Origin: an uncultured Planctomycetales bacterium | Lineage (GTDB): Bacteria > Omnitrophota > Gorgyraeia > Gygaellales > Profunditerraquicolaceae | Length of the DNA: 64,000 nucleotides | Reading direction: 5' to 3' | Assembly (NCBI GenBank): GCA_964487475.1 | Contig: CAZAPM010000006.1 | Coordinates: 21,702 to 85,701, forward strand | In this document: in pieces, positions 16,302 to 62,689 of the stretch | Numbering within the stretch: the first letter of the stretch is position 1 | Layout of the letters: every line of letters starts with the position of its first letter | The notes under the pieces: generated by a model | Told to the model about the DNA's origin: nothing | The model's database searches: none | Seen by the model: the letters and a program-made list of their open reading frames with translations, nothing else | Translations under genes and position numbers: made by a program

Positions 16302-16307
16302 GGCAGC

Positions 16308-17855: not shown

Positions 17856-17862
17856 ATCTTAC

Positions 17863-18930: not shown

Positions 18931-18948
18931 GCGGGTATTATACCAGCC

Positions 18949-26236: not shown

Positions 26237-26247
26237 CGGTATACCCC

Positions 26248-34906: not shown

Positions 34907-35830
34907 TCACTGCGGATGCTGCAGAAGGTACTTGAACGCGCTTAAGCAGGCTTTTGCCCCTTCGCCGGCAGCTACGATGATCTGCTTTTCCGGCACATCG
35001 GTGACATCCCCGGCCGCAAAGATCCCCGGCACATTGGTCTCATTCGCGGCATTGACCAGTATCTCCCCGTAAGGATTCCGCGCGACCGCTTCGGCAAAGG
35101 AGCTGTTAGGGATTAGGCCGATCTCGACGAATACTCCCTCCACCGCAAGCTTCTTCTCTTTGCCTTCGTGCAGGAAGGTGATCCCCTGCACGAAACGCTC
35201 CCCCTGGATCCCGGTGATCCGGGCAGTGCGGTACACCGTGACCAGCGGGTTGGAGAAAAGCTGTTCCTGCATCACGGCATCCCCGCTTAAGGAATCCGCG
35301 TTGGTGAGCACCGAAACCGAAGTGCATATCTTCACCAGCTGCAACGCGGCATCGAGCGCCGAATTCCCCCCGCCGACCACGGCCACGGCCTTGCGGGAGA
35401 ACAGCGGCCCGTCGCACGTCGCGCAGTACGCCACGCCCCGGTTCTTGAACTCCTTTTCCCCGGGCACTCCCAGCTCCCGGGAACGCTTGCCCGAAGCGAT
35501 GATCACGGTGCGGCTTTCATACGCGGCCTTGTCCGTCTCCACCCTGATCGCTCCGTCAGGGAGGACCTTGAGCCCCCGGCACACCTCGCGCTCATGCACC
35601 GCGATCCCGTAGTTACGCATGTGCTCCTCGAACTTCGCCGCCAGCTCGGGCCCGGTGACGAACTGGTAGCCGGTGTAATTCTCGATATCCCCGCTCCAGA
35701 TTGTCTGGCCTCCGATATCGTCGGTAAGCATCAGGAAGCGCATGCGCTTGCGGGCGGCATACACCCCTGCGGTGATCCCCGCGGGTCCGGCGCCGATGAT
35801 GATCAGTTCGTACCTCTCCGGTGCGGCCAT
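34907..35830 (-). CDS. trxB: Thioredoxin reductase
   Basis: GAGPAG FAD motif, CATC redox-active disulfide, and NADPH GGGNSA. Confidence 0.85.
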   Translation of the reverse strand: MAAPERYELIIIGAGPAGITAGVYAARKRMRFLMLTDDIGGQTIWSGDIENYTGYQFVTGPELAAKFEEHMRNYGIAVHEREVCRGLKVLPDGAIRVETDKAAYESRTVIIASGKRSRELGVPGEKEFKNRGVAYCATCDGPLFSRKAVAVVGGGNSALDAALQLVKICTSVSVLTNADSLSGDAVMQEQLFSNPLVTVYRTARITGIQGERFVQGITFLHEGKEKKLAVEGVFVEIGLIPNSSFAEAVARNPYGEILVNAANETNVPGIFAAGDVTDVPEKQIIVAAGEGAKACLSAFKYLLQHPQ

Positions 35831-35839
35831 GCGCGTACC

Positions 35840-36076
35840 TTAGATCCCCAGCGCCTGCTGGATGCGCGGCTTATCGAACCCGACGATGATCTCCCCTTCG
35901 ATATCCAGCACCGGTACCCCCATCTGTCCCGATTTCTTGATCATCTCCTCCCCTGCCGTTTCGTCGGCGGAGACATCGATATCCCGGAAGGCGATACCGC
36001 TGTCCTTGAGATACTGTTTCGCCCGGATGCAATACGGGCAGGTGGGAGTGCTGTACACCAATACGTTCTTTGCCAT
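35840..36076 (-). CDS. Glutaredoxin-like protein (CPYC)
   Basis: 78 aa with the TCPYC motif. GGAGG RBS. Start at the ATG at 36076. Confidence 0.7.
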   Translation of the reverse strand: MAKNVLVYSTPTCPYCIRAKQYLKDSGIAFRDIDVSADETAGEEMIKKSGQMGVPVLDIEGEIIVGFDKPRIQQALGI

Positions 36077-36089: not shown

Positions 36090-36563
36090 TTATTCCGCCG
36101 CCCGGTTCTGGTAATGCGCCAAATCCACCACCTCGTCGATCGCGACACCGATGAGGAACTTCGGGGTAGGCAGCAGCAGTTCGGGATGCCGGGGATGCCC
36201 CTTTTCCCCGCCGATGTTCTTCAATAACCGGCTGGTGATACGGGAGGTGATACGCGCCTCCCAGGCCTTCACCAGCTCGGTGCCGATATCCTCCTGGGTG
36301 ATGGAGACAGCCTTACCCTTAAGGCAGTACCCCTTGAAGTGATGCTCGTCGACCGCGGTCAGCGAGATATTGGGGGTCCGCTTCAGATTGGCCAGGGTCT
36401 TGCCGTGATACAGGTCAAAAAGGTAGACCCGCCCCGCAGGGCTGACGTGCACGATATCCTTGCAGGAATTGTGCACCGCCCCGTTCTCATCCACGGTCGA
36501 GACGATCACGAAATTCTGCTCCCGCAGGAATTGCAGCGCGTCTTCCACCGGTGATTGCGCCAT
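36090..36563 (-). CDS. Pyridoxamine 5'-phosphate oxidase-like FMN-binding split-barrel protein
   Basis: 157 aa with a PNPOx-like fold pattern. Confidence 0.55.
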   Translation of the reverse strand: MAQSPVEDALQFLREQNFVIVSTVDENGAVHNSCKDIVHVSPAGRVYLFDLYHGKTLANLKRTPNISLTAVDEHHFKGYCLKGKAVSITQEDIGTELVKAWEARITSRITSRLLKNIGGEKGHPRHPELLLPTPKFLIGVAIDEVVDLAHYQNRAAE

Positions 36564-36564: not shown

Positions 36565-36723
36565 TTACACCTTTTCGAACATATCCTTGCCTACCCCGCA
36601 TTCGGGGCAGACCCAGTCCGCCGGCAGGCTTTCGAACGCCGTGCCCGGCTTGACGCCGTTCTCCGGATCCCCCTTCGCCGGATCATAGATATACCCGCAC
36701 ACCGTACATTTGTATTTATCCAT
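36565..36723 (-). CDS. rd: Rubredoxin
   Basis: Not in the ORF track. 52 aa [52 protein letters not shown] with the canonical CxxCG ... CPxCG pattern. Confidence 0.8.
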
Positions 36724-36914
36724 CAGATGATACCCCCCTGTTCGGTCAGCTCATTGATCTTTCTTTCGATGAGCTCCTTGTGTTTGTACTCCTCGGAGAC
36801 CAGGAACTCGAATATCTCCCGCACTCCGGGGAAATCCTCCGCATACCTCTGATACGCCTCCATTGCCTCCTGCTCCTTAAGCAATGCCAATCGCAACGCG
36901 TCTACCGGGGTCAT
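36723..36914 (-). CDS. Small ferritin-like/rubrerythrin-like helical protein (tentative)
   Basis: ExxH-type half-site (EEYKHKEL). The stop overlaps the rubredoxin ATG (ATGA). Start placed at the internal ATG. Confidence 0.35.
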
Positions 36915-36992
36915 TCTCCCTCCCACTGGATCGACGAACGCGCAGGGGCCGGATATCAGGCCGGCCCCCGCGCACATCGTTTCACGGGACAA

Positions 36993-37093: not shown

Positions 37094-37954
37094 CTATACG
37101 AACTCTTTGAAGAGCGGCGCGATATCCACCGCGGAAATATCCTGTCGCACCAAAGGACCGGGCCTCAACGCGGCGACCTCGTCCTCATAGGTCGGACGCG
37201 ATTCCTGATAGAACACTCCTATGGGGATGCGGTCTTCCTGAGCCAGGGCCTTCGCCAGCGCCGCCGGCTTGTTCCCGCGGTCATACCCCGCCTCCTCCTC
37301 CAGCGTATACACCCGCTTCTGGAACCACTCATAGGTATTGACGCTGTTGAAGGTGACGCACGGCTGGAAGATATCCACCACGGCGAACCCCTTGTGCGCC
37401 AGGGCCTGCGTCATCACCGTCTTGATATGGTCGAAGGAGCCGACAAAGGTACGCGCCACGAACGTGGCTCCGCTGGCGATGGCCAGGGCCACGGGGTTGA
37501 CCGGCACTTCAATCACTCCCGAAGGAGTGGACTTGGTCACGAACCCTTTAAGGCTGGTGGGCGAGGTCTGCCCGGTGGTCAATCCGTACACCTGATTGTT
37601 GTGCACGAAGTAGGTGATGCCGATATTACGGCGGCAGGCGTGCAGGAAATGGTTCCCTCCGATGCCGTAGGCATCCCCGTCCCCCGAACACCCGATCACC
37701 GTAAGGGCGTGGTTGGCCAGCTTGATGCCGGTGGCCACCGGAAGGACTCGGCCGTGGAGCCCCTCGAACCCGTAGGTGGAGATGAAGTGCGAATCCTTGC
37801 CCGAGCATCCGATGCCCGAGACCACCACCGTCGATTCCGGCACGATATTGGATTTGGACAAAGACTGCAGCAGGCTGTTGAGCAGCCCGTAATTGCCGCA
37901 CCCCGGGCACCAGGAGGGTGTATACTTTGATTTCAACTGCTGCGGCGTCGTCAT
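37094..37954 (-). CDS. korB: 2-oxoacid:ferredoxin oxidoreductase beta subunit (TPP-binding)
   Basis: CPGCG and the TPP motif GDG ... N. Confidence 0.85.
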   Translation of the reverse strand: MTTPQQLKSKYTPSWCPGCGNYGLLNSLLQSLSKSNIVPESTVVVSGIGCSGKDSHFISTYGFEGLHGRVLPVATGIKLANHALTVIGCSGDGDAYGIGGNHFLHACRRNIGITYFVHNNQVYGLTTGQTSPTSLKGFVTKSTPSGVIEVPVNPVALAIASGATFVARTFVGSFDHIKTVMTQALAHKGFAVVDIFQPCVTFNSVNTYEWFQKRVYTLEEEAGYDRGNKPAALAKALAQEDRIPIGVFYQESRPTYEDEVAALRPGPLVRQDISAVDIAPLFKEFV

Positions 37955-39690
37955 GCGGAAAACCCCTTTTGCACTTCCTGAAATATCGCGTCGGGATAAA
38001 AAGGCTGGCCGTCGTATTTGAGGATGCGGGAGCCGAAGACATACCCCGTTTCCCTCGCGATCAGCTGCCCGAGCTGCCCGGTCTGATTGAGCTCCACCAG
38101 GATCGTCCGCGCACAGGAACGCAGCAGCGCACCTGCCTTATCCGACGGAAAAGGCCAAAGATGCGTGAAATGGAGATAATTGGCTTTGATCCCCGAGGCC
38201 GCGAGCATCTCCAGGGCTTCCAGGATAGGCCCTTTGTTCGATCCCCAGCTGACCAGGGTCACCTGCGCCTGGTCGGCGGGCACGCCCAGGAGCACGGGAG
38301 GCGGCACTTCCCGCTGCATCGCGCTCATCTTGGCGGTGCGCTTGTCGAACATCTTCTTTACCAACGCCTGGTCCTCGGCGTAATACCCGTATTCGTCATG
38401 CTCATAGCTGGTGGCCAGGTGTATCGCGCCCGCGGTGCCGGGAAACGCCCGCGGAGAGACCCCGTGCTCCGTCAGCCGGTACCGGGCATACTCCCCCTGC
38501 GGCGGCGATACGACAACCTCGCCCCGGTCGATCCCGACGGACCGGAGATCGAAGGGGTCCGCCGTCACATAACTTTCCCCCAGATACTTATCGGTCAGCA
38601 CGATCACCGGCACCTGGAAACGCTCCGCCAGATTGAACGCTTCCTGCGCCGCAAAGAACGCTTCCTGCGCGTCTCCGGAAGCAAGGATGAACCTGGGGAA
38701 CTCCCCCTGCGAAGCATGCAGGGCAAAAAGCAGGTCTCCCTGGGCGGTATGCGTCGGCTGTCCGGTGGCAGGACCGGGCCTCTGGCCGAGCACAAAAACC
38801 ACCGGGACTTCCGCCTGCGCCGCCAGGCCTAACGCTTCGGTCATCAGGCAGAACCCTCCTCCCGAAGTGCAGGTCATGGCGCGCACGCCGGCATACGCGG
38901 CGCCGATCGCCATATTCGCGGCGGCGATCTCGTCCTCCGTATGCTTGACCACCAGGTTATATTCCTTTTCCTTGGAGGCGAGGTAATGCAGGATGGGAGA
39001 TGCGGGGGTCATGGGATAGGCGCTTAAGAATTTCAGGCCCGCCTTAAGCGCGCCCGCGGAGAACGCTTCGTTACCGTTAAGGAACATACGCGGATGCGGA
39101 TCGCCGATCTCGATGGCCTCCCGGCACGGATAGGTATAGACCTGCCGCACGTAATGATACCCCTCCTCCAGCGCGGAAAGATTGAGCGCCACCGTCTCCT
39201 CTCCCTTTCGCGCGAACTGTTCCTCGATCAGTGTTTTCAGCGCATCGAGAGGATAACAAAGCAGGCCCAGCAGCGCGCCCAACGCAATGGTGTTGCGCAT
39301 CACCGGGGGGACCTTGAGCTTGGCGGTCAGCTGCTCCAGGGGAACGCCGTAATAATACACCCCGGGCCGCTTATCCGCCTCGGAAAGGGGGATCATCTCG
39401 GAATCAAAAAGCACCATGGCCCCGGGCAGGAGCTCCGTCTGGCGCTTTGCTACCGCATCCTTGGAAAGGGCCACCAGCACATCCACCCGGGCCGACTGAC
39501 AGGCGACCGGTACGGAACTGATACGCACGCTGCACCAGGCATGCTCGAGCTTGATGGAATTGGGATTGTCGGTAAGGAGGTGGACCCAGGCGCCCTGCCG
39601 GGTGAACGCGCGCGCCAGGGACAATGCCGAAACATTGATCCCCTGCCCTGCTTCCCCGGCGATCTTGATGCAAAGGTCGCGGTACGCCAT
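37951..39690 (-). CDS. korA: 2-oxoacid:ferredoxin oxidoreductase gamma-alpha fusion subunit
   Basis: N-terminal gamma domain (IAGEAGQGI) fused to an alpha domain. Start at the ATG at 39690. Confidence 0.85.
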   Translation of the reverse strand: MAYRDLCIKIAGEAGQGINVSALSLARAFTRQGAWVHLLTDNPNSIKLEHAWCSVRISSVPVACQSARVDVLVALSKDAVAKRQTELLPGAMVLFDSEMIPLSEADKRPGVYYYGVPLEQLTAKLKVPPVMRNTIALGALLGLLCYPLDALKTLIEEQFARKGEETVALNLSALEEGYHYVRQVYTYPCREAIEIGDPHPRMFLNGNEAFSAGALKAGLKFLSAYPMTPASPILHYLASKEKEYNLVVKHTEDEIAAANMAIGAAYAGVRAMTCTSGGGFCLMTEALGLAAQAEVPVVFVLGQRPGPATGQPTHTAQGDLLFALHASQGEFPRFILASGDAQEAFFAAQEAFNLAERFQVPVIVLTDKYLGESYVTADPFDLRSVGIDRGEVVVSPPQGEYARYRLTEHGVSPRAFPGTAGAIHLATSYEHDEYGYYAEDQALVKKMFDKRTAKMSAMQREVPPPVLLGVPADQAQVTLVSWGSNKGPILEALEMLAASGIKANYLHFTHLWPFPSDKAGALLRSCARTILVELNQTGQLGQLIARETGYVFGSRILKYDGQPFYPDAIFQEVQKGFSA

Positions 39691-39706: not shown

Positions 39707-40897
39707 CTACGCGCGAAGCTGCTGCGCGAACTTCTGACCCCAGGCATAGCACTGCGCAAGCTGCGCCTGGTCCGGAACGTACTGAACGCTCATCGACTCC
39801 TGAGGCAGAGCGACACCGGTCTCGGCAAGCAATTTCTCGATCTCCTTGACCGCGCCTCCGGCCCACCCATAGGAGCCGAACACCCCGGCGAGACGGCCCT
39901 TAGGCTTCAAGCCTTTGAAATACTCCAGGAAACCGGCGATGATGATAAGCATATCGTTATCATGGGTGGAAGAACCGAAGACGAACCCCTTGGCATCCAG
40001 CATCTCGGTGATGATCTCGGTGGAATTGGATACCGCGATATCGTAGAGCTGCACGCGTACCCCCGCATCGGCGATGCCCTGAGCGATTGCCCTGGCCATC
40101 ATGGCGGTCGAGCCCCACATGGTCTCGTAGACCACTACCGCCTTAGGGACCGTGGTATTGCCCGCCCAGCGCACGTATGCTTCGACGATCCCCGCCGGGT
40201 CCTTGCGCCAGATCACCCCGTGCGAAGGCGCGATCATATCGATGGGAAGCGCCATTTTCTGGAGGTCCTGCAGTTTCTTCAGGATTATGCCGCTCAAGGG
40301 CCAGAGGATATTGGCGTAATATTTCTTCGCCTCGTCCATCAGCACCGCCTGATCGACCTCGTCATCGAAACGCTCGGCCGTGGCCAGATGCTGTCCGAAG
40401 GCGTCATTGGGGAAGAGCACCTTTTCTTCGGGGCAATAGGTGAACATGGAATCCGGCCAGTGGATCATGGGCGCTTCGATGAAGGAAAGGGTACGAGAAC
40501 CTAAGGAGACCGTATCCCCGGTCTTGACCACCCGGAAATCGAACTTCCGGTGATAGACCTTCTCCAGCCCTTCCTGGCATTTCGCCGTACCCAGGAATTT
40601 CGCCCGGGGACAGAGCTCTGCCAGCTGGGGCAAACCCCCGGAATGGTCCGTTTCCACATGGTTGGCCACGATATAATCGATGCGCTCCAAAGGCACGATC
40701 TCCCTGATCCGATCGAGATGCTCTTTGACGAAAGGCCCGAAGACGCTGTCGATAAGCGCGATCTTCTCATCCACCACCAGATAGGAATTATACGTCGATC
40801 CCCGGCGGGTGGTATACGTGTTGCCGTGAAAGGTGCGAATATTCCAGTCCACCACTCCGACCCAGTATATGCCTTTTTTGATCTCTACCGGCTTCAT
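39707..40897 (-). CDS. fprA: Flavodiiron protein (rubredoxin:oxygen/NO oxidoreductase)
   Basis: Metallo-beta-lactamase diiron site (HVETDHSGG) followed by a flavodoxin domain. Confidence 0.85.
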   Translation of the reverse strand: MKPVEIKKGIYWVGVVDWNIRTFHGNTYTTRRGSTYNSYLVVDEKIALIDSVFGPFVKEHLDRIREIVPLERIDYIVANHVETDHSGGLPQLAELCPRAKFLGTAKCQEGLEKVYHRKFDFRVVKTGDTVSLGSRTLSFIEAPMIHWPDSMFTYCPEEKVLFPNDAFGQHLATAERFDDEVDQAVLMDEAKKYYANILWPLSGIILKKLQDLQKMALPIDMIAPSHGVIWRKDPAGIVEAYVRWAGNTTVPKAVVVYETMWGSTAMMARAIAQGIADAGVRVQLYDIAVSNSTEIITEMLDAKGFVFGSSTHDNDMLIIIAGFLEYFKGLKPKGRLAGVFGSYGWAGGAVKEIEKLLAETGVALPQESMSVQYVPDQAQLAQCYAWGQKFAQQLRA

Positions 40898-40919: not shown

Positions 40920-41771
40920 CTACTGCGCCAACCCGTCGATGATGCTCGCCATGATGAAATCGTTCATGCTCAGCCCCTTGGCCGCATGCGTCGTCAGGGT
41001 GACCTTGACCTTGTTCCAGGAGATCGTCAGCGTGGGATGATGCCCCTGTTCCTGCGCCGCCAGGGCGATCATATCCAGCAGGACCTTCGCGTCCGCGAAA
41101 TCGGAGCGGACGAACTCTTTGACCAGCTTTTTGCCTTCGACCAGCTCCCATCCCGGAGCGGCGGCTGCCAGCTCCCCGGCCTTCTGCGGGTCCAGCGCCT
41201 GAGCCGGGCCTTCGCACGCCACGCATTTGAGCACGGCTTCACGGTTGGAGGCTTTCCCCGGATCAGCCTGCACCTTCTGCAGGAACTCCAGCGCGGCATC
41301 ATAATCGGGCGCGTGAGTCACTTCCTCCACCACCTGCAGGTAACGGACGATATCCGCCCGGTCCACGATAAGCACTGCCCGGGCGAGAAGCCCCAGCTCC
41401 CGGATCAGCAGCCCGTAGTGCAACCCGAAGGAACGCGTGGCATAATCGGAGACCACCGTCACGGCACGGATGTCATGCTCGGAGCAGAAACGCTTCTGGG
41501 CGAAAGGCAGGTCCATGCTGATACCCACGATCGCCACATCCTGCCCCAGGGACGCCGCGCGCCTGTTGAACTCCTTGACCTGCAGGTCGCACACCGGCGT
41601 ATCCAGGGAAGGAAACGTGGTAAGCACCTTGATCTTTCCGGAGAAAGAATCCAAAGTCACGGAGGAAAGGTCCTGCGCGGTCACGGTGAAACGCGGCGCC
41701 AGCCCCCCCACCCGCACCTTGTGCCCGGCCAGGGTCAAGGGCGATCCCTTGAACGTAACGGTCTCGGCCAT
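40920..41771 (-). CDS. tpx: Thiol peroxidase (Tpx) fused to a pterin-4a-carbinolamine dehydratase (PCD/DCoH)-like domain
   Basis: N-terminal Tpx (TFPSLDTPVCDLQ ... peroxidatic Cys; resolving Cys). C-terminal about 100 aa is PCD-like (EGHHPTLTISWNKVKVTLTTHAAKGLSMNDFIMASIID). Confidence 0.7.
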   Translation of the reverse strand: MAETVTFKGSPLTLAGHKVRVGGLAPRFTVTAQDLSSVTLDSFSGKIKVLTTFPSLDTPVCDLQVKEFNRRAASLGQDVAIVGISMDLPFAQKRFCSEHDIRAVTVVSDYATRSFGLHYGLLIRELGLLARAVLIVDRADIVRYLQVVEEVTHAPDYDAALEFLQKVQADPGKASNREAVLKCVACEGPAQALDPQKAGELAAAAPGWELVEGKKLVKEFVRSDFADAKVLLDMIALAAQEQGHHPTLTISWNKVKVTLTTHAAKGLSMNDFIMASIIDGLAQ

Positions 41772-41781
41772 GCCGGCCTCC

Positions 41782-42273
41782 TTAGGCTCCCCTTCTGGCT
41801 AACTCGCGGTCCAGCATGATCAATGCCGGGCCTTCGGCTTTGAACATCTTCATGGTATCGATCACGTAGGTCGCGTTCTTCTCCTCTTCGACCTGCTCGG
41901 TGATGAACCACTGCAGGAACACCTGGGATGCGGTGTCCTTCGTCTCCAGCGCCAGCTTATAGAGGTCGTTGATCCACGCGGTCACTTTGCGTTCGTGCCC
42001 GAGGGCGGCCTGAAACACCGCCAGCGGAGAGGCGAATTCCGCCTCCGGCTCTCCCAAGGCCTGCAAATTCACCCTCACCCCGCGGTCGACGAGGAATTCG
42101 AACATCTTCATGGCATGGCCCTGCTCTTCCTTGGTCTGCACCTTCATCCAGTGGGCGAATCCCGGAAGGTTCACGGACTCGAAATACGCCGCCATGGAAA
42201 GGTAAAGATACGCCGAATAAAGCTCGTTCTTGATCTGGTCATTGAATGCCTTCTGAAGTTTCTTATCCATCAT
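41782..42273 (-). CDS. ftn: Ferritin (non-haem)
   Basis: ELYSAYLY ... EEQGHAMKMFEF ferroxidase residues. Start at the internal MMDKK. Confidence 0.85.
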   Translation of the reverse strand: MMDKKLQKAFNDQIKNELYSAYLYLSMAAYFESVNLPGFAHWMKVQTKEEQGHAMKMFEFLVDRGVRVNLQALGEPEAEFASPLAVFQAALGHERKVTAWINDLYKLALETKDTASQVFLQWFITEQVEEEKNATYVIDTMKMFKAEGPALIMLDRELARRGA

Positions 42274-42299: not shown

Positions 42300-42695
42300 T
42301 TATTCGACTGAAACCTGCTTGCTGCTTTCCCAAAGGCCGTGGATATTGCAGTAGGACACGGCGATAAGCGTACCGGGCTTTTCGGTCTTGAAGGAGCAGA
42401 CCGCTGCCGGCACGGTGTATACGGTGCTGGTATTCGGCCCCTGCGCGGAAGCCCCGTGCGCGGCAAACTCATACCGCCCCAGCTGATAGGAGAATTTCTC
42501 ACCCTGGGGAAGGAAATAAAGGCTCGCCCAGGCGATGTGATGTTCCGTGGTATTGGGATGCGCGATCTCCCTGCCCACCGATACGGACACCTGGAGCGCT
42601 TCCCCTTTTTTGACCTTATCCGGAGCTTCTATGACCGGAACGTGCTTCTCGGTCTTCCAATCCGCGGACTGAACGATATCCTTTGCCGATGCCAT
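42300..42695 (-). CDS. sor: Superoxide reductase (desulfoferrodoxin/neelaredoxin family)
   Basis: KHVPVIE ... HPNTTEHHIAW ... C and H ligands for centre II. Confidence 0.8.
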   Translation of the reverse strand: MASAKDIVQSADWKTEKHVPVIEAPDKVKKGEALQVSVSVGREIAHPNTTEHHIAWASLYFLPQGEKFSYQLGRYEFAAHGASAQGPNTSTVYTVPAAVCSFKTEKPGTLIAVSYCNIHGLWESSKQVSVE

Positions 42696-42754: not shown

Positions 42755-43360
42755 TCACTCCAGCTTATCGCCGACCTTACCCACCAGGTCCTTGCCCGGA
42801 GTAAGGGTCTTATTCCCGGATTTCCACTTTGCCGGACACACCTGCGCAGGGTTGCCGCGCACATATTTGAACGCCTTGAGCTTGCGCATCAGCTCCTCCG
42901 CGTTGCGGCCGACAGGGAAATAATTGACCTCGGAGGCCATGAGGGTCCCGTCCGGATCGATCAGGAAGGTGCCCCGCAGCGCCAGGCCGCTGGCCTCATC
43001 ATACACCCCGAACGCCTTGGAAAGACTGTGCGTCGGGTCCGCCGCCATGGGGAAGGCGATGTGCGAAAGCATCTTTTCCGACCCGTGCCAGGCGTAATGC
43101 ACATAGTGCGTATCCGTGCTTACCGATACCAGCTCGGCGCCTTCCTTGACGATCTCCTCATACTTTTCCCCCACGTCCGCGAGTTCCGTCGGACAGACAA
43201 AGGTATAATCCGCAGGGTAGAAGAACAGCACCAGCCATCTGCCCTTTCCCGTGATCTCGGATACCTTCAACGACCCGAAATCCTTCTTCGCGGGCAGATA
43301 CACGTTCATCGCGAAATCAGGGACCTTATCCCCTATCTTCAACACGCAACTCTCATCCAT
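42755..43360 (-). CDS. ahpC: Peroxiredoxin (2-Cys AhpC/Prx1)
   Basis: FYPADYTFVCPTEL peroxidatic Cys and C-terminal resolving VCPAKW. Start at the ATG at 43360 behind an AAGGAGAGGG RBS. Confidence 0.85.
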   Translation of the reverse strand: MDESCVLKIGDKVPDFAMNVYLPAKKDFGSLKVSEITGKGRWLVLFFYPADYTFVCPTELADVGEKYEEIVKEGAELVSVSTDTHYVHYAWHGSEKMLSHIAFPMAADPTHSLSKAFGVYDEASGLALRGTFLIDPDGTLMASEVNYFPVGRNAEELMRKLKAFKYVRGNPAQVCPAKWKSGNKTLTPGKDLVGKVGDKLE

Positions 43361-43757
43361 GACCCTCTCCTTTTTTTGGGGCAGCGCATGCATGGCAGCG
43401 CCCGTACAGATCCACTCTCTGATAGGCGACCGAAAACTTGAACTTCCGGCGCGCCAGCTTGGCGAACTCCCCGCAGTGCGGCTCCTCGATATCCAGCACC
43501 CGCCCGCAGGAAAGGCACACCAGGTGGGAATGGTCCTGCACCGTGGCATCATACCGGCTGGGTTTCTTCCCGAACCCCAGCTCCACGATACTGCCCTCCT
43601 CCTGCAGCAGGCGGAGATTCCGGTAGATGGTCCCGAAGCTTACCGCGGGAATACGCTTGCGCACCATCCGGTAGAGGGTTTCCGCCGTAGGGTGCGTCTT
43701 GACCTTACGAAGCTCCTCCAGGATCATGCTGCGCTGCCGGCTCACCCTGCGTTGCAT
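43353..43757 (-). CDS. perR: Fur-family peroxide-responsive regulator (PerR-like)
   Basis: Fur fold with HxH, CxxC ... CxxC. Its end overlaps the ahpC start by 8 bp. Confidence 0.8.
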   Translation of the reverse strand: MQRRVSRQRSMILEELRKVKTHPTAETLYRMVRKRIPAVSFGTIYRNLRLLQEEGSIVELGFGKKPSRYDATVQDHSHLVCLSCGRVLDIEEPHCGEFAKLARRKFKFSVAYQRVDLYGRCHACAAPKKGEGHG

Positions 43758-43769: not shown

Positions 43770-43830
43770 TATTAACAGTAATGATTCTTATTATCAATAT
43801 ACTATACGAAAAAGGCCCCGGAGTCAATGA
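43770..43830 (-). promoter_or_regulatory. perR-ahpC promoter region with AT-rich Fur/PerR-box-like element
   Basis: Minus-strand TTGACT ... TATAGT, then ATTGATAATAAGAATCATTA before the GGAGGAGGG RBS. The operator assignment is tentative. Confidence 0.3.
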
Positions 43831-43846: not shown

Positions 43847-44563
43847 TCAATACCCGACGAAATTCTCCGTTTTTACCGCCTGCGGATCGCAGCCTAAGGA
43901 GACGCACAGCGACTGCATCGCCTGCACCATGCGCGGAGGGCCGTAGATGAAGAAGGTCCGCTGCGCGATATCGCAGATATACCGCCTGACCGCCTGCTCG
44001 TCGATGACCCCGAAGACGCAGACATTATCCTTCGGCGGGCACTCGGAAACCAGATAAGACACGCGCATCCGCGGATTTCCCGCGGCCCATCCGTCGAGCT
44101 CCCTGCGGAAGGCGATATCCTCGTCGGTACGGTTGGAGTAGAGCAGGCAGATATCCGTGGGCAATCCCCGGGAGGCCACGTGCTCGACGATCGAGATCAC
44201 CGGCGTGATGCCGATCCCTCCGATGAGGAATCCGATCTTGCGCATCCCCTCTTCGAACACGCAGGTGCCCAGGGGCGCCTTGACCGAAAGCTCGTCCCCC
44301 GGCGAAAGCGCCTGCAGCTGCCGGGAAAAATCGCTCTGGCTCAAACGTTTGGTGAATTCGATGTAGCCCTTGCCCGGGGCGCAGGAAAAGGAAAGATATT
44401 TGTTCAAGAGCTTGTCCCCCGGGACGGCGGGATTGAACATCACCTGCAAGAACTGCCCGGGCAGGAAATCTATCTTTTCTTTGGAGACCGGCTCGCAGCG
44501 GAAGCTCTCCACTCCCGGCGCACGCACGATCCTCTCCCGCAGCCGCACCCGGTGCTCCTTCAT
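43847..44563 (-). CDS. FAD/NAD(P)-binding ferredoxin-reductase-like oxidoreductase
   Basis: FNR-like fold with RxYS FAD motif and GGIGITP NAD motif. Confidence 0.65.
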   Translation of the reverse strand: MKEHRVRLRERIVRAPGVESFRCEPVSKEKIDFLPGQFLQVMFNPAVPGDKLLNKYLSFSCAPGKGYIEFTKRLSQSDFSRQLQALSPGDELSVKAPLGTCVFEEGMRKIGFLIGGIGITPVISIVEHVASRGLPTDICLLYSNRTDEDIAFRRELDGWAAGNPRMRVSYLVSECPPKDNVCVFGVIDEQAVRRYICDIAQRTFFIYGPPRMVQAMQSLCVSLGCDPQAVKTENFVGY

Positions 44564-46775: not shown

Positions 46776-46801
46776 TAATGCTCCTGCGTGCGTTTATTAT
46801 A

Positions 46802-48094
46802 CTACTTCTTCCCCAGAATATCAGCCAAATCCTTATCCGGAGTGGTGATCAGTTTCAGATCGAAGGCATCCTGCAGCACCTTGAACACCCCCGGAGAGAT
46901 GAATGCGGGAGGTGTCGGGCCGACGCGGATACCCTTGACGCCCAGAGAGAAAAGGGTCAACAGGATCGCCACGGCCTTCTGCTCGAACCAGGAGAGTACA
47001 AAAGAAAGCGGAAGGTCGTTGACCCCGCAGTTGAACACTTTTGCCAGGGCGAGCGCCACCTGGATCCCGGAGTACGCGTTATTGCACTGCCCCAGGTCGA
47101 TCAATCGCGGGATACCGTCGATCTCGCCGAAGTCGAGCTTGTTGAACCGGTACTTGCCGCAGGCGACCGTCAGGATCACGCAATCCTGCGGGACCTTTTC
47201 GGCCAGCTCGGTGTAATAATTACGGCCCGGTTTCGCGCCGTCGCAGCCGCCGATCAGGAAGAACCTCCGGATCTTGCCGGCCTTGACCGCGGCCACGATC
47301 TTATCCGCCAGCCCCAGGATCGCGGTATGATGGAACCCGGTCATGATCTTCTTTCCCGGTGCCTCCGGCAGCGCCGGAAGGGATTTGGCCTTCGCGATCA
47401 CCTCGCTGAAATCACGGCCCTTCAGATGTTTTGCGCCGGGCACTCCGGTGATACCGATGGTATAAAGCCGGTCCAGGTACGTCCCGTCCGGCGGGATCAA
47501 TACGCAGTTGGTGGTGGCGATGAGCGCGCCGGAGAACGCGGCGAACTCCTTCTTCTGCTCCTGCCAGGCTCCCCCGTAATTGCCGGCCAGATGCTTGAAC
47601 TTGCGCAGCTCGGGATATGCGTGCGCCGGAAGCATCTCGCTGTGGGTATAGACATTGATCCCCGTGCCTTCGGTCTGCTTAAGCAGCTCATAGAGGTCCA
47701 GCAGGTCATGCCCGGTTACCAGTATCCCCGGCCCCTTGCGCGTCCCCGTATCCACTGCCACCGGAGAAGGAGCGCCGAAACGAGCCACGTGCGCGGCATC
47801 CAGCATCTCCATGGTCTTCAGGTTCATCTCCCCGCATTTAAGCACCGTCGCCACATGGTCGTTGAGATCGAAGCTCACGTTGGTGATGGTCTTGAAAAGC
47901 GCTTCGTGCATGAAGGCATCCACTTCCTCATTGCGCGCGCCAAGCTCACGGGCATGGAATGCATACGCCGCCATACCTTTGAGGCCGTAGAGCAACGTAT
48001 CCTGCAGGCTCTGAATATCCTCGTTCTTGCCGCACACCCCTACCTTGGTGCACCCCGTTCCCATCGCCGTCTGTTCGCACTGATAGCAAAACAT
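46802..48094 (-). CDS. hcp: Hybrid cluster protein / hydroxylamine reductase (short class)
   Basis: N-terminal MFCYQCEQT ... C cubane motif and a hybrid-cluster domain. 430 aa. Confidence 0.85.
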   Translation of the reverse strand: MFCYQCEQTAMGTGCTKVGVCGKNEDIQSLQDTLLYGLKGMAAYAFHARELGARNEEVDAFMHEALFKTITNVSFDLNDHVATVLKCGEMNLKTMEMLDAAHVARFGAPSPVAVDTGTRKGPGILVTGHDLLDLYELLKQTEGTGINVYTHSEMLPAHAYPELRKFKHLAGNYGGAWQEQKKEFAAFSGALIATTNCVLIPPDGTYLDRLYTIGITGVPGAKHLKGRDFSEVIAKAKSLPALPEAPGKKIMTGFHHTAILGLADKIVAAVKAGKIRRFFLIGGCDGAKPGRNYYTELAEKVPQDCVILTVACGKYRFNKLDFGEIDGIPRLIDLGQCNNAYSGIQVALALAKVFNCGVNDLPLSFVLSWFEQKAVAILLTLFSLGVKGIRVGPTPPAFISPGVFKVLQDAFDLKLITTPDKDLADILGKK

Positions 48095-48098
48095 GATT

Positions 48099-48323
48099 TC
48101 AACCTCCGTTTGGTTTTTTTACCGCGTCTTCGCCGATACATTCCTTCGCCGCCTTGCACCACTGGGTGCAGGAAGGCAATGCTTCCTTCATCACCCGCGC
48201 GCCGCACTCCGGGCAGCGCACGCTTACTTCATCCGAGAACACTTCCACGGCATACCCGCACCCTGAGCACGGCACCGTGGCCGCTTTCAACTTCCGGCGG
48301 TCCTGTCCCGGACATTTACCCAT
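48099..48323 (-). CDS. Small zinc-ribbon protein
   Basis: 74 aa with CSGCG ... CPECG. Confidence 0.4.
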   Translation of the reverse strand: MGKCPGQDRRKLKAATVPCSGCGYAVEVFSDEVSVRCPECGARVMKEALPSCTQWCKAAKECIGEDAVKKPNGG

Positions 48324-49203
48324 CGATCAGCTCCCCCTGGATGGAAACCGTCACCTGCGAGAAGGGGATCTCTTTCCCCGATGCGGCCAGCGCCTCCTCG
48401 ATCACCGGGATCAGCCCGAAACAACAGGGCACTTCCATATGGGCATAAGTGACCGAGCGGATATTGCGATGCGTGAATATCTGGGTAAGCTTCTCCCGGT
48501 ACGCCTGGGTGTTATCGAGCTTGGGGCAGCCCACCACCAGGACCTTGCCTGCCAGCAGACCGCGGTGGAAATCCGGATACGCGAAAGGCACGCAATCCGC
48601 GGCGATCAGGAGGTCCGCGTCCTCCAGGAACGAGGCCATGGGAGACACCAGGTTCAGCTGCACCGGCCAGTGCGTCAACTCCGCGCTCATGGGTGTCCCC
48701 TTCAGGAGCGTCCCTTTTAGGGACGCTCCTGCGGGAGCCACCCCTTTGCGCGCCGCAGCCGGGATCTTCCTCTCCGCGCTTCCCGGACATCCTCCTCCGT
48801 GGCATCCCGCCCCTTCCCCCAGCACTTCCTGAGGGCTTACCTTAATATTACGCTCCTGGAGCACCTCCATCGCTTCGCGCAAATACCCCATCTCATTATG
48901 CTCCTTCAAATGCCTCAAATGCGCGATAATGGTGCCTCGCCCCTGCTTGACAATATTCTCCATGACCTTTCGCTCACTGTAGGGCTCGGCCTCCCGCTCC
49001 TCGATCGTGATCGCACCCTCCGGGCAATGCCCCAGGCACGCTCCCAGGCCGTCGCAGAACAGGTCGCTGACCAGCCTCGCCTTGCCTTCGATCAGCTGAA
49101 TCGCGCCCTCCGGACAGTTCGGGATACACTGCCCGCATCCGTTGCACTTCTCATCGTCAATGCGAATAATCTTGCGCTTTGCCATGGTTATCCTTCCTTG
49201 CAC
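48316..49203 (-). CDS. 4Fe-4S ferredoxin-domain protein with Cys-rich C-terminal domain (hcp-associated)
   Basis: N-terminal CNGCGQCIPNCP and CDGLGACLGHCP. C-terminal CVPF ... GCPKL ... VPCCFG. The interdomain linker is encoded by the palindromic repeat at 48692-48730. Confidence 0.6.
   Translation of the reverse strand: MQGRITMAKRKIIRIDDEKCNGCGQCIPNCPEGAIQLIEGKARLVSDLFCDGLGACLGHCPEGAITIEEREAEPYSERKVMENIVKQGRGTIIAHLRHLKEHNEMGYLREAMEVLQERNIKVSPQEVLGEGAGCHGGGCPGSAERKIPAAARKGVAPAGASLKGTLLKGTPMSAELTHWPVQLNLVSPMASFLEDADLLIAADCVPFAYPDFHRGLLAGKVLVVGCPKLDNTQAYREKLTQIFTHRNIRSVTYAHMEVPCCFGLIPVIEEALAASGKEIPFSQVTVSIQGELIDG
48692..48730. repeat. Second copy of the repeat family, with perfect palindrome AGGAGCGTCCC-TTTT-AGGGACGCTCCT
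   Basis: Shares GGGACGCTCCT(R)AAGGGGACACCC with the copy at 4976. Lies in-frame inside the ferredoxin-like gene. Confidence 0.6.
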
Positions 49204-53349: not shown

Positions 53350-53361
53350 CCCGATCCCTCC

Positions 53362-53943
53362 CTACCAGGTTATCACTCCGAACGCCTCCAGGAACATCAA
53401 CACCCCGAAAAGCACGAATATGCATGCGCAGACTGTCTTGATGGTCCTCTCCGGCAGATGCTTTCCCGCCAGCACTCCCGCGCCGATCGCCACGGCATCG
53501 GCGAGGATCATCCCCGCACTTGCGCCAAGCCACACCCCCAGCAGCGAACGGTACTTCGCTGCCAACGACATGGTGGCCAGCTGGGTCTTATCCCCGAGCT
53601 CCGCCAGAAAAAAGGTCATGGCCACGGTCAGCACCGGAGAAATTCCTCCCTTCGCCGGGCAGCACTTCCCGTCTTCCTTCTGCTTCTCCAGCAACGTCCA
53701 CACCCCGAAGCCGACGAATACCGTCGCGATGATCAGCTTGAGCACCTGCTCCGGGATAAGCAGGCTCAACCGCTCTCCGATCAGCACCGCCAGCAGATTG
53801 ACCGCCGCGATCCCCAGTATCACTCCGGTGACCGCATGCCTGGGCCGGTACGCCGCGGCGCAGGAAAGCGCCAGCAGCTGGGTCTTATCCCCCAGCTCGG
53901 CGAGCAGGACCAGCAAGAACGAAGGCAGGAAACCCGTCATCAC
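53362..53943 (-). CDS. GDT1/TMEM165 (UPF0016) family cation transporter
   Basis: Two E-x-G-D-K-T motifs (ELGDKTQL, twice). Confidence 0.75.
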   Translation of the reverse strand: MMTGFLPSFLLVLLAELGDKTQLLALSCAAAYRPRHAVTGVILGIAAVNLLAVLIGERLSLLIPEQVLKLIIATVFVGFGVWTLLEKQKEDGKCCPAKGGISPVLTVAMTFFLAELGDKTQLATMSLAAKYRSLLGVWLGASAGMILADAVAIGAGVLAGKHLPERTIKTVCACIFVLFGVLMFLEAFGVITW

Positions 53944-55540: not shown

Positions 55541-55558
55541 CGGACACGCCTCTGCATA

Positions 55559-62625: not shown

Positions 62626-62654
62626 GGCCGTATTATAGCGCATAAAGTTTAACT

Positions 62655-62683: not shown

Positions 62684-62689
62684 ATCGGC

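What the first reader, a model, noticed from the sequence alone, without database searches (positions are those of the whole stretch)
40920..41771. Thiol peroxidase fused to a pterin-4a-carbinolamine dehydratase (DCoH)-like domain
The N-terminal 170 aa is a canonical Tpx with both Cys. The C-terminal 100 aa matches the PCD/DCoH signature (EGHHP ... SWNKV ... THAAKGLS ... D). This fusion is not a standard architecture. The DCoH domain could be a dimerisation or regulatory appendage, or it could recycle an oxidised pterin.
Basis: seen in the sequence. Interest (0 to 1): 0.55.

Follow-up and report, generated by a model that had tools for sequence, protein, structure and literature searches.

The report
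Thiol peroxidase fused to pterin dehydratase
A real, widely conserved but unstudied gene in oxygen-defence operons of anaerobic Omnitrophota-type bacteria joins a peroxide-destroying thiol peroxidase to an apparently active pterin-4a-carbinolamine dehydratase, hinting that these anaerobes repair oxidised pterin cofactors as part of their oxygen-stress response.

Summary
Window 40920-41771 (minus strand) is one uninterrupted 283-aa ORF. It has a full Tpx-type peroxiredoxin domain (aa 1-165) and a full bacterial PCD/DCoH domain (aa 181-283), each matching its profile at about E 1e-25.

It is not a frameshift artefact. More than 120 protein clusters and at least 80 species-level genomes carry the same ~283-aa architecture. 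Most are Candidatus Omnitrophota, and a few are anammox Brocadiales or other anaerobe MAGs. Both domains are equally conserved (about 63% and 62% mean pairwise identity), and the catalytic residues of both are essentially invariant. The linker varies in sequence but is fixed in length.

The gene sits in an oxygen/ROS-defence operon: Fur/PerR-like regulator, Prx, superoxide reductase, ferritin, Tpx-PCD, flavodiiron protein, then rubredoxin, Grx-like and TrxR-like genes. This context recurs in 33 of 43 well-flanked loci. No hydroxylase, Moco or folate gene was seen nearby.

Best reading: a bifunctional oxidative-stress enzyme combining a thiol-dependent peroxidase with an active pterin carbinolamine dehydratase. 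What the dehydratase does physiologically is inferred, not shown.

Databases name the protein only "thiol peroxidase", and I found no paper on the fusion. I class it as a new variant of known kinds, of moderate interest.

The parts
40920..41771 (-). Tpx-PCD fusion gene, 283 aa plus TAG stop at 40920-40922
   Evidence: Single ORF. Pfam Redoxin plus Pterin_4a. An exact-sequence copy, P0001, is in NCBI on a 122.5-kb contig. 54-63% identical full-length homologues occur in >=120 clusters.
41277..41771 (-). Tpx (atypical 2-Cys peroxiredoxin) domain, aa 1-165. Thr58/Cys61 (peroxidatic; Cys61 codon 41589-41591), Cys96 (resolving; codon 41484-41486), Arg131
   Evidence: NCBIfam NF001808 thiol peroxidase, 189 bits against cutoff 123. 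Foldseek finds solved Tpx structures at TMt 0.74-0.91 and 40-43% identity. C61, C96 and R131 are present in 78/78 sequences and T58 in 77/78.
41232..41276 (-). Inter-domain linker, aa 166-180: variable in sequence, fixed in length
   Evidence: Mean pairwise identity is 29.8%, against about 62-64% in the domains. The Y157-to-C183 distance is 24-26 residues in 76/78 sequences. AF2 pLDDT is about 61 here.
40923..41231 (-). PCD/DCoH domain, aa 181-283. N-terminal CxxC (C183/C186; 41214-41225), His244-His245-Pro246 (41034-41042), His262 (40986-40988), Asp271 (40959-40961)
   Evidence: Pfam PF01329, 88 bits against cutoff 26. Sequence hits to solved PCD/DCoH structures at E 5e-11 with HHP and TH aligned. 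34-45% identical to stand-alone ~110-aa PCDs that share the KCxPCEGG start. H244, H245, P246, D271, C183 and C186 are present in 78/78 and H262 in 75/78.
41777..41783 (-). Shine-Dalgarno AAGGAGG, 5 nt upstream of the ATG, overlapping the ferritin stop codon (translationally packed operon)
   Evidence: Sequence read.
43353..43757 (-). Fur-family (PerR-like) regulator, first gene of the cluster. A Fur-box-like site and a promoter-like site lie at about 43777-43827
   Evidence: Pfam FUR, E 2e-27. TTGACT-17-TAGTAT promoter-like site. GATAATAAGAATCATTACT read.
42755..43357 (-). AhpC/TSA-type peroxiredoxin
   Evidence: Pfam AhpC-TSA, E 5.6e-35.
42300..42695 (-). Superoxide reductase (desulfoferrodoxin/neelaredoxin domain)
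   Evidence: Pfam Desulfoferrodox, E 3.6e-33. The same neighbour is present in 15/43 related loci.
41782..42270 (-). Ferritin, immediately upstream of the fusion gene
   Evidence: Pfam Ferritin, E 3.6e-42.
39707..40897 (-). Flavodiiron protein (O2/NO reductase), starting 22 nt downstream of the fusion gene
   Evidence: Pfam ODP/Lactamase_B plus Flavodoxin_1. Neighbour in 23/43 related loci.
37094..39690 (-). Two-subunit 2-oxoacid:ferredoxin oxidoreductase (alpha/gamma 37951-39690, beta 37094-37954)
   Evidence: Pfam POR, POR_N, TPP_enzyme_C and PFO_beta_C. Neighbour in 15-17/43 loci.
36565..36723 (-). Rubredoxin
   Evidence: Translation [15 protein letters not shown]...CPECG. Neighbour in 25/43 loci.
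36090..36563 (-). PNPOx-like FMN-binding protein
   Evidence: Pfam PNPOx_N. Neighbour in 22/43 loci.
35840..36073 (-). Glutaredoxin/NrdH-like small thiol protein (CPYC), candidate reductant of the Tpx domain
   Evidence: Translation. Neighbour in 22/43 loci. Annotated PF00462 Glutaredoxin in L002 and L004.
34907..35830 (-). Low-Mr thioredoxin-reductase-like flavoprotein (CATC active site, no HRRxxxR NADPH motif)
   Evidence: Pfam Pyr_redox_2. Motif check. Neighbour in 21/43 loci.

Best explanation
The gene encodes a genuine bifunctional protein of the anaerobe oxygen/ROS-defence regulon.

N-terminal domain. This is an atypical 2-Cys thiol peroxidase (Tpx). Cys61 attacks H2O2 or an organic hydroperoxide and forms a sulfenic acid. 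Cys96 resolves it to an intramolecular disulfide. A small thiol protein then re-reduces the disulfide. The likely source is the Grx/NrdH-like protein and TrxR-like flavoprotein encoded in the same cluster.

C-terminal domain. This is a complete, catalytically competent bacterial pterin-4a-carbinolamine dehydratase. It would convert 4a-hydroxy-tetrahydropterins to quinonoid dihydropterins.

Proposed role of the dehydratase. These organisms are hydrogen-metabolising anaerobes, and no pterin-dependent hydroxylase was found in the DNA examined here. I therefore propose that the carbinolamine arises non-enzymatically, when reduced pterins (tetrahydrofolate-type or molybdo/tungstopterin-type cofactors) meet O2 or peroxide. 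Dehydration would return the damaged cofactor to a re-reducible form before it rearranges irreversibly. Fusion to Tpx ensures one-to-one co-expression and co-localisation with peroxide removal.

Shown:
- the architecture
- conservation of both active sites
- purifying selection on both domains
- the ROS-operon context

Inferred:
- both enzyme activities
- the reductant
- the identity and origin of the pterin substrate
For: Architecture and family:
- Pfam and NCBIfam confirm both domains.
- Foldseek matches the N-domain to solved Tpx structures. PDB sequence hits match the C-domain to PCD/DCoH with HHP and TH aligned.
- >=120 clusters and 80 species genomes carry the same ~283-aa fusion.

Conservation:
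- Mean pairwise identity is 63.6% for Tpx and 62.0% for PCD, against 29.8% for the linker.
- T58, C61, C96, R131, H244, H245, P246 and D271 are present in 77-78 of 78 sequences, and H262 in 75/78.
- dN/dS is about 0.2 for Tpx and 0.3 for PCD.
- The PCD motif is met strictly in 104/120 sequences and in relaxed form in 118/120.
- Linker length is fixed.
- AF2 with 120 sequences gives pLDDT 89.8 and pTM 0.85, which suggests a defined two-domain arrangement.

Context:
- The window operon runs PerR-like, Prx, SOR, ferritin, Tpx-PCD, FDP ... rubredoxin, PNPOx, Grx-like, TrxR-like.
- 33/43 well-flanked loci have ROS-defence neighbours (examples).
- Triple fusions Rubrerythrin-Tpx-PCD and Rhodanese-Tpx-PCD exist.

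Literature:
- PCD family proteins occur widely in organisms without aromatic-amino-acid hydroxylases and have been assigned 'a role in Moco metabolism' (table in PMC3223725, citing Naponelli 2008).
Against: - No pterin, folate, Moco or hydroxylase gene was seen in the window (51 ORFs scanned) or in any annotated neighbourhood.
- The PCD domain scores below every NCBIfam PCD equivalog cutoff: 63-68 bits against 80-146.
- The window protein has Gln240 where most family members (63/78) and human PCD have Glu.
- The neighbourhoods of three stand-alone PCD relatives showed neither tpx nor ROS genes, so no unfused tpx-pcd pair supports a functional link.
- Non-enzymatic formation of free 4a-hydroxypterins in vivo is an assumption from my own knowledge of pterin chemistry. 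It was not documented in the papers I could read.
- No biochemical data exist for any member of the family.
Confidence: 0.5

Rival explanations
1. Only the Tpx domain is an enzyme. The PCD/DCoH fold serves as a structural module, for oligomerisation (PCD/DCoH proteins are dimers or tetramers) or for docking to a partner protein. This would parallel DCoH binding HNF1 or acRAF/Raf2 assisting RuBisCO assembly.
For: - The DCoH fold has documented non-enzymatic roles, and acRAF is a detectable though weak relative (E 1e-3).
- No pterin-related gene is present in any neighbourhood.
- AF2 pTM 0.85 suggests the domain packs against Tpx.
- PCD domains are fused to many unrelated partners: LOG, SRPBCC, Maf, RF-1 and TPR.
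Against: - The catalytic His-His-Pro...His...Asp residues are invariant or nearly so in 78 species-level sequences at about 62% identity.
- The motif is kept in 104-118 of 120 members. From my own knowledge, the known non-catalytic PCD-like proteins have lost it.
- The domain is 34-45% identical to ordinary stand-alone PCDs along its whole length.
Confidence: 0.22
2. The two domains act consecutively on one molecule. O2 adds to a tetrahydropterin to give a 4a-hydroperoxide. Tpx, which prefers organic hydroperoxides, reduces it to the 4a-carbinolamine. The PCD domain dehydrates that to quinonoid dihydropterin. A variant of this idea: tetrahydropterin itself reduces the Cys61 sulfenate through a C4a adduct, making a pterin-dependent peroxidase whose product is recycled by the PCD domain.
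For: - The order of the domains matches the order of the proposed reactions.
- Linker length is fixed and AF2 predicts a compact arrangement.
- Both active sites are co-conserved.
- The context is an O2-stress operon.
- FNR-like and PNPOx-like flavoproteins that could re-reduce a quinonoid pterin are neighbours in 22/43 loci.
Against: - This is entirely inferential.
- Free pterin 4a-hydroperoxides are very short-lived (own knowledge).
- Conserved resolving Cys96, together with adjacent Grx-like and TrxR-like genes, points to ordinary thiol recycling.
- The inter-domain covariation signal was not above expectation.
- Model coordinates could not be inspected to see whether the two pockets face each other.
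Confidence: 0.17
3. The invariant CxxC at the start of the PCD domain acts as a built-in redox relay (or metal site) that re-reduces or senses the Tpx disulfide, analogous to the fused glutaredoxin in Prx-Grx hybrid peroxiredoxins.
For: - C183 and C186 are present in 78/78 sequences.
- The motif lies in the flexible segment between the two domains.
- Natural peroxiredoxins with a fused reductant domain exist (own knowledge).
Against: - The same KCxPCEGG motif is present in 59/80 of the nearest stand-alone PCD representatives and in 118/119 P0132-like stand-alone PCDs. It therefore predates the fusion and is not specific to it.
- The segment is not a thioredoxin fold.
- Separate Grx-like and TrxR-like genes are encoded nearby.
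Confidence: 0.07
4. Artefact: two adjacent genes (tpx and a PCD gene) merged by a sequencing or assembly frameshift or a missed stop codon.
For: None found.
Against: - The reading frame is continuous, with a strong SD and ATG.
- An identical protein is in NCBI.
- The same-length fusion occurs in >=120 clusters and 80 genomes from independent assemblies.
- No second tpx or PCD copy is present in the window.
Confidence: 0.01

Closest known systems
Tpx (thiol peroxidase, 'p20 scavengase'; E. coli Tpx and relatives), the Tpx subfamily of atypical 2-Cys peroxiredoxins
   Same: - The N-terminal 165 aa pass the NCBIfam Tpx equivalog model.
- They keep Thr-x-x-Cys61, Cys96 and Arg131 at the E. coli positions.
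- They superpose on solved Tpx structures at 40-43% identity.
   Different: - All solved and characterised Tpx proteins are single-domain proteins of about 165 aa. Here a 118-aa linker plus PCD domain is appended.
- No PDB chain covers both domains (TMq <= 0.50).
Bacterial pterin-4a-carbinolamine dehydratase (PhhB / COG2154 / Pfam Pterin_4a), CxxC-bearing subclass
   Same: - The C-terminal 103 aa align end to end with stand-alone ~110-aa PCDs at 34-45% identity.
- The alignment includes the N-terminal KCxPCEGG motif and the HHP...TH...ND catalytic residues.
   Different: - It is fused rather than free.
- It has no phhA-type hydroxylase partner.
- It is encoded in an ROS-defence operon of an anaerobe.
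- It scores below the NCBIfam PCD equivalog cutoffs.
- It has Gln240 instead of Glu in the window protein.
Hybrid peroxiredoxins with a fused partner domain (for example Prx-Grx fusions of Haemophilus/Vibrio type; recalled from own knowledge)
   Same: A peroxiredoxin carries a second, independently folding domain on the same chain, expressed for oxidative-stress defence.
   Different: In those hybrids the added domain is the thiol reductant and has a thioredoxin fold. Here the added domain is a dehydratase fold with no known redox role.
Non-catalytic PCD-like proteins (DCoH as HNF1 cofactor; acRAF/Raf2 RuBisCO assembly factors)
   Same: Same alpha/beta fold. These proteins show that the fold can serve as a protein-binding module.
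   Different: - acRAF matches only at E 1e-3.
- The fusion family keeps the catalytic motif.
- It has no RuBisCO or carboxysome context.

Membership tests
Tpx subfamily of peroxiredoxins | Sequence match to the curated Tpx family model above its trusted cutoff | tested here: met
   NCBIfam NF001808 'thiol peroxidase' equivalog: 189 bits against cutoff 123, aa 3-165. Pfam Redoxin and AhpC-TSA are also matched.
Tpx subfamily of peroxiredoxins | Peroxidatic Cys in a T-x-x-C motif plus the conserved active-site Arg | tested here: met
   T58-P-V-C61 and R131. C61 and R131 are present in 78/78 sequences and T58 in 77/78.
Tpx subfamily of peroxiredoxins | Resolving Cys about 34-35 residues after the peroxidatic Cys (E. 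coli C61/C95), giving the atypical 2-Cys mechanism | tested here: met
   C96 in RFC is present in 78/78 sequences. The DTPVC...RFC spacing motif is found in 118/120.
Tpx subfamily of peroxiredoxins | Tpx three-dimensional fold | tested here: met
   The AF2 model against the PDB gives Tpx entries as top hits: 1psq, 3p7x, 2xpd, 3hvv and others, TMt 0.74-0.91.
Tpx subfamily of peroxiredoxins | Thioredoxin-dependent hydroperoxide reductase activity | not testable with these tools
   Needs an enzyme assay. Only supportive context is available: Grx-like and TrxR-like genes lie in the cluster.
PCD/DCoH (Pfam Pterin_4a, COG2154) | Match to the Pfam family model above the gathering score | tested here: met
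   PF01329: 88.2 bits against 26, aa 193-280 covering profile positions 3-90 of 91.
PCD/DCoH (Pfam Pterin_4a, COG2154) | Match to NCBIfam 4a-hydroxytetrahydrobiopterin dehydratase equivalog models above their cutoffs | tested here: not met
   Five PRK00823 models score 55.8-68.4 bits against cutoffs of 80-146. This is domain-level membership only.
PCD/DCoH (Pfam Pterin_4a, COG2154) | Catalytic motif [EDKH]-x3-H-[HN]-[PCS]-x5,6-[YWF]-x9-[HW]-x8,15-D (recalled from Naponelli et al. 2008; paper not readable here) | tested here: inconclusive
   The window protein is QEQGHHPTLTISWNKVKVTLTTHAAKGLSMND. Every position is met except the first, where it has Q240. The family meets the strict motif in 104/120 and the relaxed form in 118/120. 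H244, H245, P246 and D271 are present in 78/78.
PCD/DCoH (Pfam Pterin_4a, COG2154) | beta-beta-alpha-beta-beta-alpha fold related to solved PCD structures | tested here: met
   Predicted elements are E209-211, E215-221, H225-242, E247-251, E254-259 and H269-282, at pLDDT 85-97. Sequence hits to 3hxa, 1dch, 2v6u and 1uso at E 5e-11 to 3e-10.
PCD/DCoH (Pfam Pterin_4a, COG2154) | Genomic association with a pterin-dependent aromatic amino-acid hydroxylase (phhA-phhB type operon) | tested here: not met
   No Biopterin_H-type gene was found among the 51 window ORFs scanned or in the annotated related loci. Whole genomes could not be scanned.
PCD/DCoH (Pfam Pterin_4a, COG2154) | 4a-hydroxytetrahydropterin dehydratase activity | not testable with these tools
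   Needs an enzyme assay or complementation test.
Prx hybrids with a fused reductant domain (Prx-Grx type) | The fused domain is a thioredoxin-fold CxxC protein that reduces the Prx | tested here: not met
   The fused domain is Pterin_4a. Its CxxC is shared with stand-alone PCDs.
Non-catalytic PCD-like assembly factors (acRAF/Raf2) | Loss of the catalytic His motif and a RuBisCO/carboxysome gene context | tested here: not met
   The motif is retained. acRAF matches only at E 1e-3. No RuBisCO genes are present in the window or the loci.

The most novel reading that the evidence does not exclude
The fusion is a dedicated pterin-cofactor damage-repair enzyme. Tpx reduces an O2-derived pterin 4a-hydroperoxide, or uses tetrahydropterin as its reductant. 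The attached PCD domain then dehydrates the resulting 4a-carbinolamine to a re-reducible quinonoid dihydropterin. This would give the first physiological role for PCD-family proteins in hydroxylase-free anaerobes. It would also reveal a previously unrecognised branch of oxidative-stress defence that protects folate- or molybdo/tungstopterin-type cofactors.
Probability: 0.17. Interest if true: 0.8.

Novelty: new variant of a known kind. Interest (0 to 1): 0.5.

Why it matters
PCD (COG2154) genes are widespread in organisms that have no pterin-dependent hydroxylase, and what they do there is still open. The only proposal I could find is a loosely defined role in Moco metabolism (PMC3223725, citing Naponelli 2008).

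A PCD domain that is covalently and conservatively tied to a thiol peroxidase, inside O2/ROS-defence operons of strict anaerobes, gives a concrete and directly testable hypothesis: PCD handles pterin oxidation products generated non-enzymatically under oxygen stress.

It also points to two practical issues. Hundreds of database entries are under-annotated as plain 'thiol peroxidase'. And there is an uncharacterised component of oxygen tolerance in Omnitrophota and some anammox bacteria, groups with few or no pure cultures.

If the PCD domain proved to be only structural, the finding would be a minor architectural curiosity.

Tried and rejected
1. Frameshift or gene-merge artefact: rejected.
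2. CxxC as a fusion-specific redox relay: weakened, because the motif is a hallmark of a large subclass of stand-alone PCDs.
3. Unfused tpx-pcd gene pairs or informative contexts for stand-alone PCD relatives. Two look-ups landed on contigs under 2 kb. Three longer contexts showed no tpx, ROS or pterin genes. This was uninformative.
4. Pterin-dependent hydroxylases, Moco genes or folate genes in the window. 51 ORFs were scanned with Pfam and none was found.
5. Inter-domain covariation (APC-corrected mutual information on 193 sequences). 9 of the top 60 pairs are Tpx-PCD pairs, below the ~43% random expectation, so there is no usable interface signal.
6. Structure. The first AF2 run with 30 sequences gave pTM 0.62, and the run with 120 sequences gave 0.85. 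The afdb50 fold library was unavailable.
Taxonomy was instead inferred from GlgC homologues.
8. Literature. Nine full-text searches found no paper on a Tpx/peroxiredoxin-PCD fusion. Naponelli 2008 is not held. Papers on tetrahydrobiopterin autoxidation did not mention a 4a-hydroperoxide.
9. Promoter and terminator scans were not above shuffled expectation. There are no tRNA or Rfam hits in the window.
Full report
**Observation**

The minus strand of window 40920-41771 carries one uninterrupted ORF of 283 codons, from the ATG at 41771 to the TAG at 40920-40922. An AAGGAGG Shine-Dalgarno sequence lies 5 nt upstream of the ATG and overlaps the stop codon of the preceding ferritin gene. The next gene, a flavodiiron protein, starts 22 nt after the stop.

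Pfam finds Redoxin at aa 21-161 (E 1.4e-24) and Pterin_4a at aa 193-280 (E 3.9e-25, 88 bits against a gathering score of 26). NCBIfam places aa 3-165 in the thiol peroxidase (Tpx) equivalog family at 189 bits against a cutoff of 123. The C-terminal part scores 56-68 bits against five 4a-hydroxytetrahydrobiopterin dehydratase models whose equivalog cutoffs are 80-146, so none is reached.

**Not an artefact, but a family**

A search of about 5.8 billion proteins returned an identical NCBI protein on a 122.5-kb contig. It also returned at least 120 further clusters at 54-63% identity. All are 281-292 aa long and all carry Redoxin plus Pterin_4a. Where a source names them, they are called only 'thiol peroxidase', 'lipid hydroperoxide peroxidase' or 'thioredoxin-dependent peroxiredoxin'.

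The 80 best loci all encode the full-length fusion:
- Most are Candidatus Omnitrophota MAGs.
- Two are anammox bacteria: Ca. Jettenia ecosi and Ca. Loosdrechtia aerotolerans.
- Several are labelled Planctomycetales or Planctomycetia.
- A few are labelled Chlamydiota, Margulisiibacteriota, Ratteibacteria, Spirochaetota, Patescibacteria, Deltaproteobacteria or Gammaproteobacteria.

The window's own GlgC has its best named relatives (63-70% identity) almost exclusively in Ca. Omnitrophota. The gene order around the fusion also matches Omnitrophota loci. The window therefore most likely comes from a divergent, 60%-GC Omnitrophota-like anaerobe.

**Anatomy and conservation**

I analysed 78 species-level coding sequences.
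- Mean pairwise identity is 63.6% for the Tpx domain, 62.0% for the PCD domain and 29.8% for the linker (aa 166-180).
- The linker keeps its length: 24-26 residues between Y157 and C183 in 76 of 78.
- Tpx residues C61, C96 and R131 are present in 78/78, and T58 in 77/78.
- PCD residues H244, H245, P246 and D271 are present in 78/78, and H262 in 75/78.

A rough Nei-Gojobori estimate on 11 pairs that passed the dS filter (dS about 1.2, close to saturation) gives dN/dS of about 0.2 for Tpx and 0.3 for PCD.

The PCD catalytic motif, as I recall it from Naponelli et al. 2008, is met strictly by 104/120 members. It is met by 118/120 if the first position is left free. The window protein fails only at that first position, where it has Gln240. 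Most members (63/78) and human PCD have Glu there.

The C-terminal domain aligns end to end with ordinary stand-alone PCDs of about 110 aa at 34-45% identity. That alignment includes a KCxPCEGG motif at its start. This CxxC (C183/C186, 78/78) is therefore not an invention of the fusion. It occurs in 59/80 of the nearest stand-alone representatives and in 118/119 relatives of P0132. None of the solved PCD structures that match includes it.

**Structure**

AlphaFold2 with a 30-sequence alignment gave pLDDT 77.5 and pTM 0.62. With 120 sequences it gave pLDDT 89.8 and pTM 0.85, and only the segment around residues 170-190 stayed at about pLDDT 61. A pTM that high for a 165 + 103-residue protein suggests a defined packing of the two domains. 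I could not access coordinates or PAE, so the relative position of the active sites is unknown.

Foldseek against the PDB finds solved Tpx structures for the N-terminal domain (TMt 0.74-0.91, 40-43% identity). No chain covers both domains.

**Context**

All on the minus strand, the window encodes:
- an FNR-like flavoprotein (43847-44563)
- a Fur-family (PerR-like) regulator (43353-43757)
- an AhpC/TSA peroxiredoxin (42755-43357)
- superoxide reductase (42300-42695)
- ferritin (41782-42270)
- the Tpx-PCD fusion (40920-41771)
- a flavodiiron protein (39707-40897)
- a two-subunit 2-oxoacid:ferredoxin oxidoreductase (37094-39690)
- a small ferritin-like ORF (36723-36992)
- rubredoxin (36565-36723)
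- a PNPOx-like protein (36090-36563)
- a CPYC glutaredoxin/NrdH-like protein (35840-36073)
- a TrxR-like flavoprotein (34907-35830)

The same neighbours recur in related loci. Of 43 species-level loci with at least 4 kb on both sides, 33 have at least one of these families within 6 kb, and about half have six or more (examples):

| Neighbour family | Loci (of 43) |
|---|---|
| rubredoxin | 25 |
| FDP | 23 |
| Grx-like | 22 |
| PNPOx | 22 |
| FNR-like | 22 |
| TrxR-like | 21 |
| rubrerythrin | 19 |
| SOR | 15 |
| hybrid cluster protein | 13 |
| DJ-1/PfpI | 13 |

Rarer relatives extend the module further, as Rubrerythrin-Tpx-PCD and Rhodanese-Tpx-PCD.

The rest of the window fits a fermentative, H2-metabolising strict anaerobe: two HydABC-type [FeFe]-hydrogenase sets, a HydG-like maturase, Rex and FeoB. 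No pterin-dependent hydroxylase, Moco gene or folate gene appears among the 51 window ORFs scanned or in the annotated neighbourhoods.

**How it most likely works**

Three things are shown: a conserved two-domain protein with both catalytic sites intact, purifying selection on both halves, and a position in an O2/ROS-defence operon.

The rest is inferred from the established chemistry of the two families.
- The Tpx half reduces H2O2 or organic hydroperoxides through Cys61-SOH and a Cys61-Cys96 disulfide. It is recycled by a small thiol protein, plausibly the cluster's Grx-like protein with the TrxR-like flavoprotein.
- The PCD half dehydrates 4a-hydroxy-tetrahydropterins to quinonoid dihydropterins.
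- No hydroxylase was found in the DNA examined, so the carbinolamine would have to come from non-enzymatic oxidation of reduced pterins (folate-type or molybdo/tungstopterin-type) when the anaerobe meets oxygen.

This fits the earlier proposal that PCD proteins in hydroxylase-free organisms serve Moco metabolism (table in PMC3223725). I put this explanation at about 0.5.

The more specific and more novel version is that the two halves act consecutively: pterin 4a-hydroperoxide to carbinolamine to quinonoid dihydropterin, or a pterin-dependent peroxidase. It fits the domain order, the fixed linker length and the compact model, but it has no direct support (about 0.17).

A purely structural or docking role for the PCD fold (about 0.22) is disfavoured by the invariance of the catalytic residues. 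It is not excluded, given the complete absence of pterin genes nearby.

A CxxC redox-relay role (about 0.07) is weakened because stand-alone PCDs share the motif.

**Comparison with what is known**

The N-terminal half is a member of the Tpx subfamily by every sequence and fold criterion I could test.

The C-terminal half is a member of the Pterin_4a/COG2154 family at domain level. It falls below the NCBIfam equivalog cutoffs and lacks the classical phhA partner.

The combination differs from the known peroxiredoxin hybrids, in which the added domain is the reductant. It also differs from the non-catalytic PCD-like proteins, in which the motif is lost and acRAF matches only at E 1e-3.

Nine full-text searches found no paper on this fusion. 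The library does not hold most subscription journals, so absence from it is not proof of absence.

**Verdict**

This is a new variant built from two known kinds of enzyme: common in Omnitrophota, under-annotated and uncharacterised.

Interest is moderate (0.5). It would not overturn anything. It does turn an old open question into a simple set of experiments: what do PCD proteins do where there is no pterin-dependent hydroxylase?

Noticed in passing
window 34907-36073 (-) and 37094-39690 (-): The TrxR-like flavoprotein has the CATC redox-active disulfide but lacks the HRRxxxR NADPH-binding motif. It sits next to a CPYC Grx/NrdH-like protein and, a few genes away, a two-subunit 2-oxoacid:ferredoxin oxidoreductase. 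This suggests a ferredoxin-driven rather than NADPH-driven thiol-reducing chain feeding the peroxidases. The same trio recurs in 15-22 of 43 related loci.
   Followed up: partly
window ~43777-43827 (-): Upstream of the Fur-family (PerR-like) gene lies a promoter-like TTGACT-17-TAGTAT site. It is followed by GATAATAAGAATCATTACT, which matches 15 of 19 positions of the classical Fur box as I recall it. This suggests autoregulation of the cluster. Significance was not tested.
   Followed up: partly
P0135, P0189, P0170 (from; Pfam): Triple fusions exist that extend the same module: Rhodanese-Tpx-PCD (398 and 402 aa) and Rubrerythrin-Tpx-PCD (439 aa).
   Followed up: partly
P0121 (554 aa) and P0131 (4799 aa): P0121 matches the PCD query in four separate stretches. 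The giant 4799-aa P0131 matches in twelve. These multi-copy PCD-match proteins are of unknown function and neither was examined further.
   Followed up: no
P0175/P0137, P0197, P0166, P0264, P0211: PCD domains are also fused to LOG/'lysine decarboxylase'-like, SRPBCC (polyketide cyclase), Maf, RF-1/ArfB-like and TPR domains. PCD is a promiscuous fusion partner, which weakens any single Rosetta-stone inference.
   Followed up: no
aa 183-186 of the fusion (window 41214-41225); alignment A2: A KCxPCEGG (CxxC) motif precedes the PCD fold in the fusion and in a large subclass of stand-alone bacterial and archaeal PCDs (59/80 and 118/119 in two samples). None of the matching solved PCD structures contains it, and AF2 models it with low confidence. 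Its role (metal site, redox switch) appears unknown.
   Followed up: partly
L004, L006, L054, L064, L061, L065 (gene just downstream of the fusion): A DJ-1/PfpI family gene immediately follows the fusion gene in 13 of 43 loci, including both anammox genomes. The window instead has the flavodiiron gene at that position.
   Followed up: partly
window 6062-12905 and 20112-26919 (-): Two separate HydABC-type (electron-bifurcating-like) [FeFe]-hydrogenase gene sets are present. Each has a Nuo51-like and a 2Fe-2S thioredoxin-like subunit. A third HydA-like protein with a PF04060 FeS domain, a HydG-like radical-SAM maturase and a Rex-type redox regulator are also present. This marks the host as an H2-metabolising strict anaerobe.
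   Followed up: no
window 60094-63562: An isoprenoid gene group sits in this otherwise fermentative anaerobe: polyprenyl synthetase, a lycopene-cyclase-domain protein and a squalene/phytoene synthase, possibly for carotenoid or hopanoid-type lipids.
   Followed up: no
window 46778-48448 (+), 53335-56059 (+): Long plus-strand ORFs of 556, 263 and 381 aa have no Pfam match and lower third-position GC (0.60-0.64, against about 0.75-0.85 for neighbouring genes). The true genes here may lie on the other strand or be novel. In 16000-20100 the longest plus-strand ORFs proved spurious. From reading the translations (no profile search was run), the minus-strand ORFs there look like UppP, RluA-like, NadA and MnmA.
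   Followed up: partly
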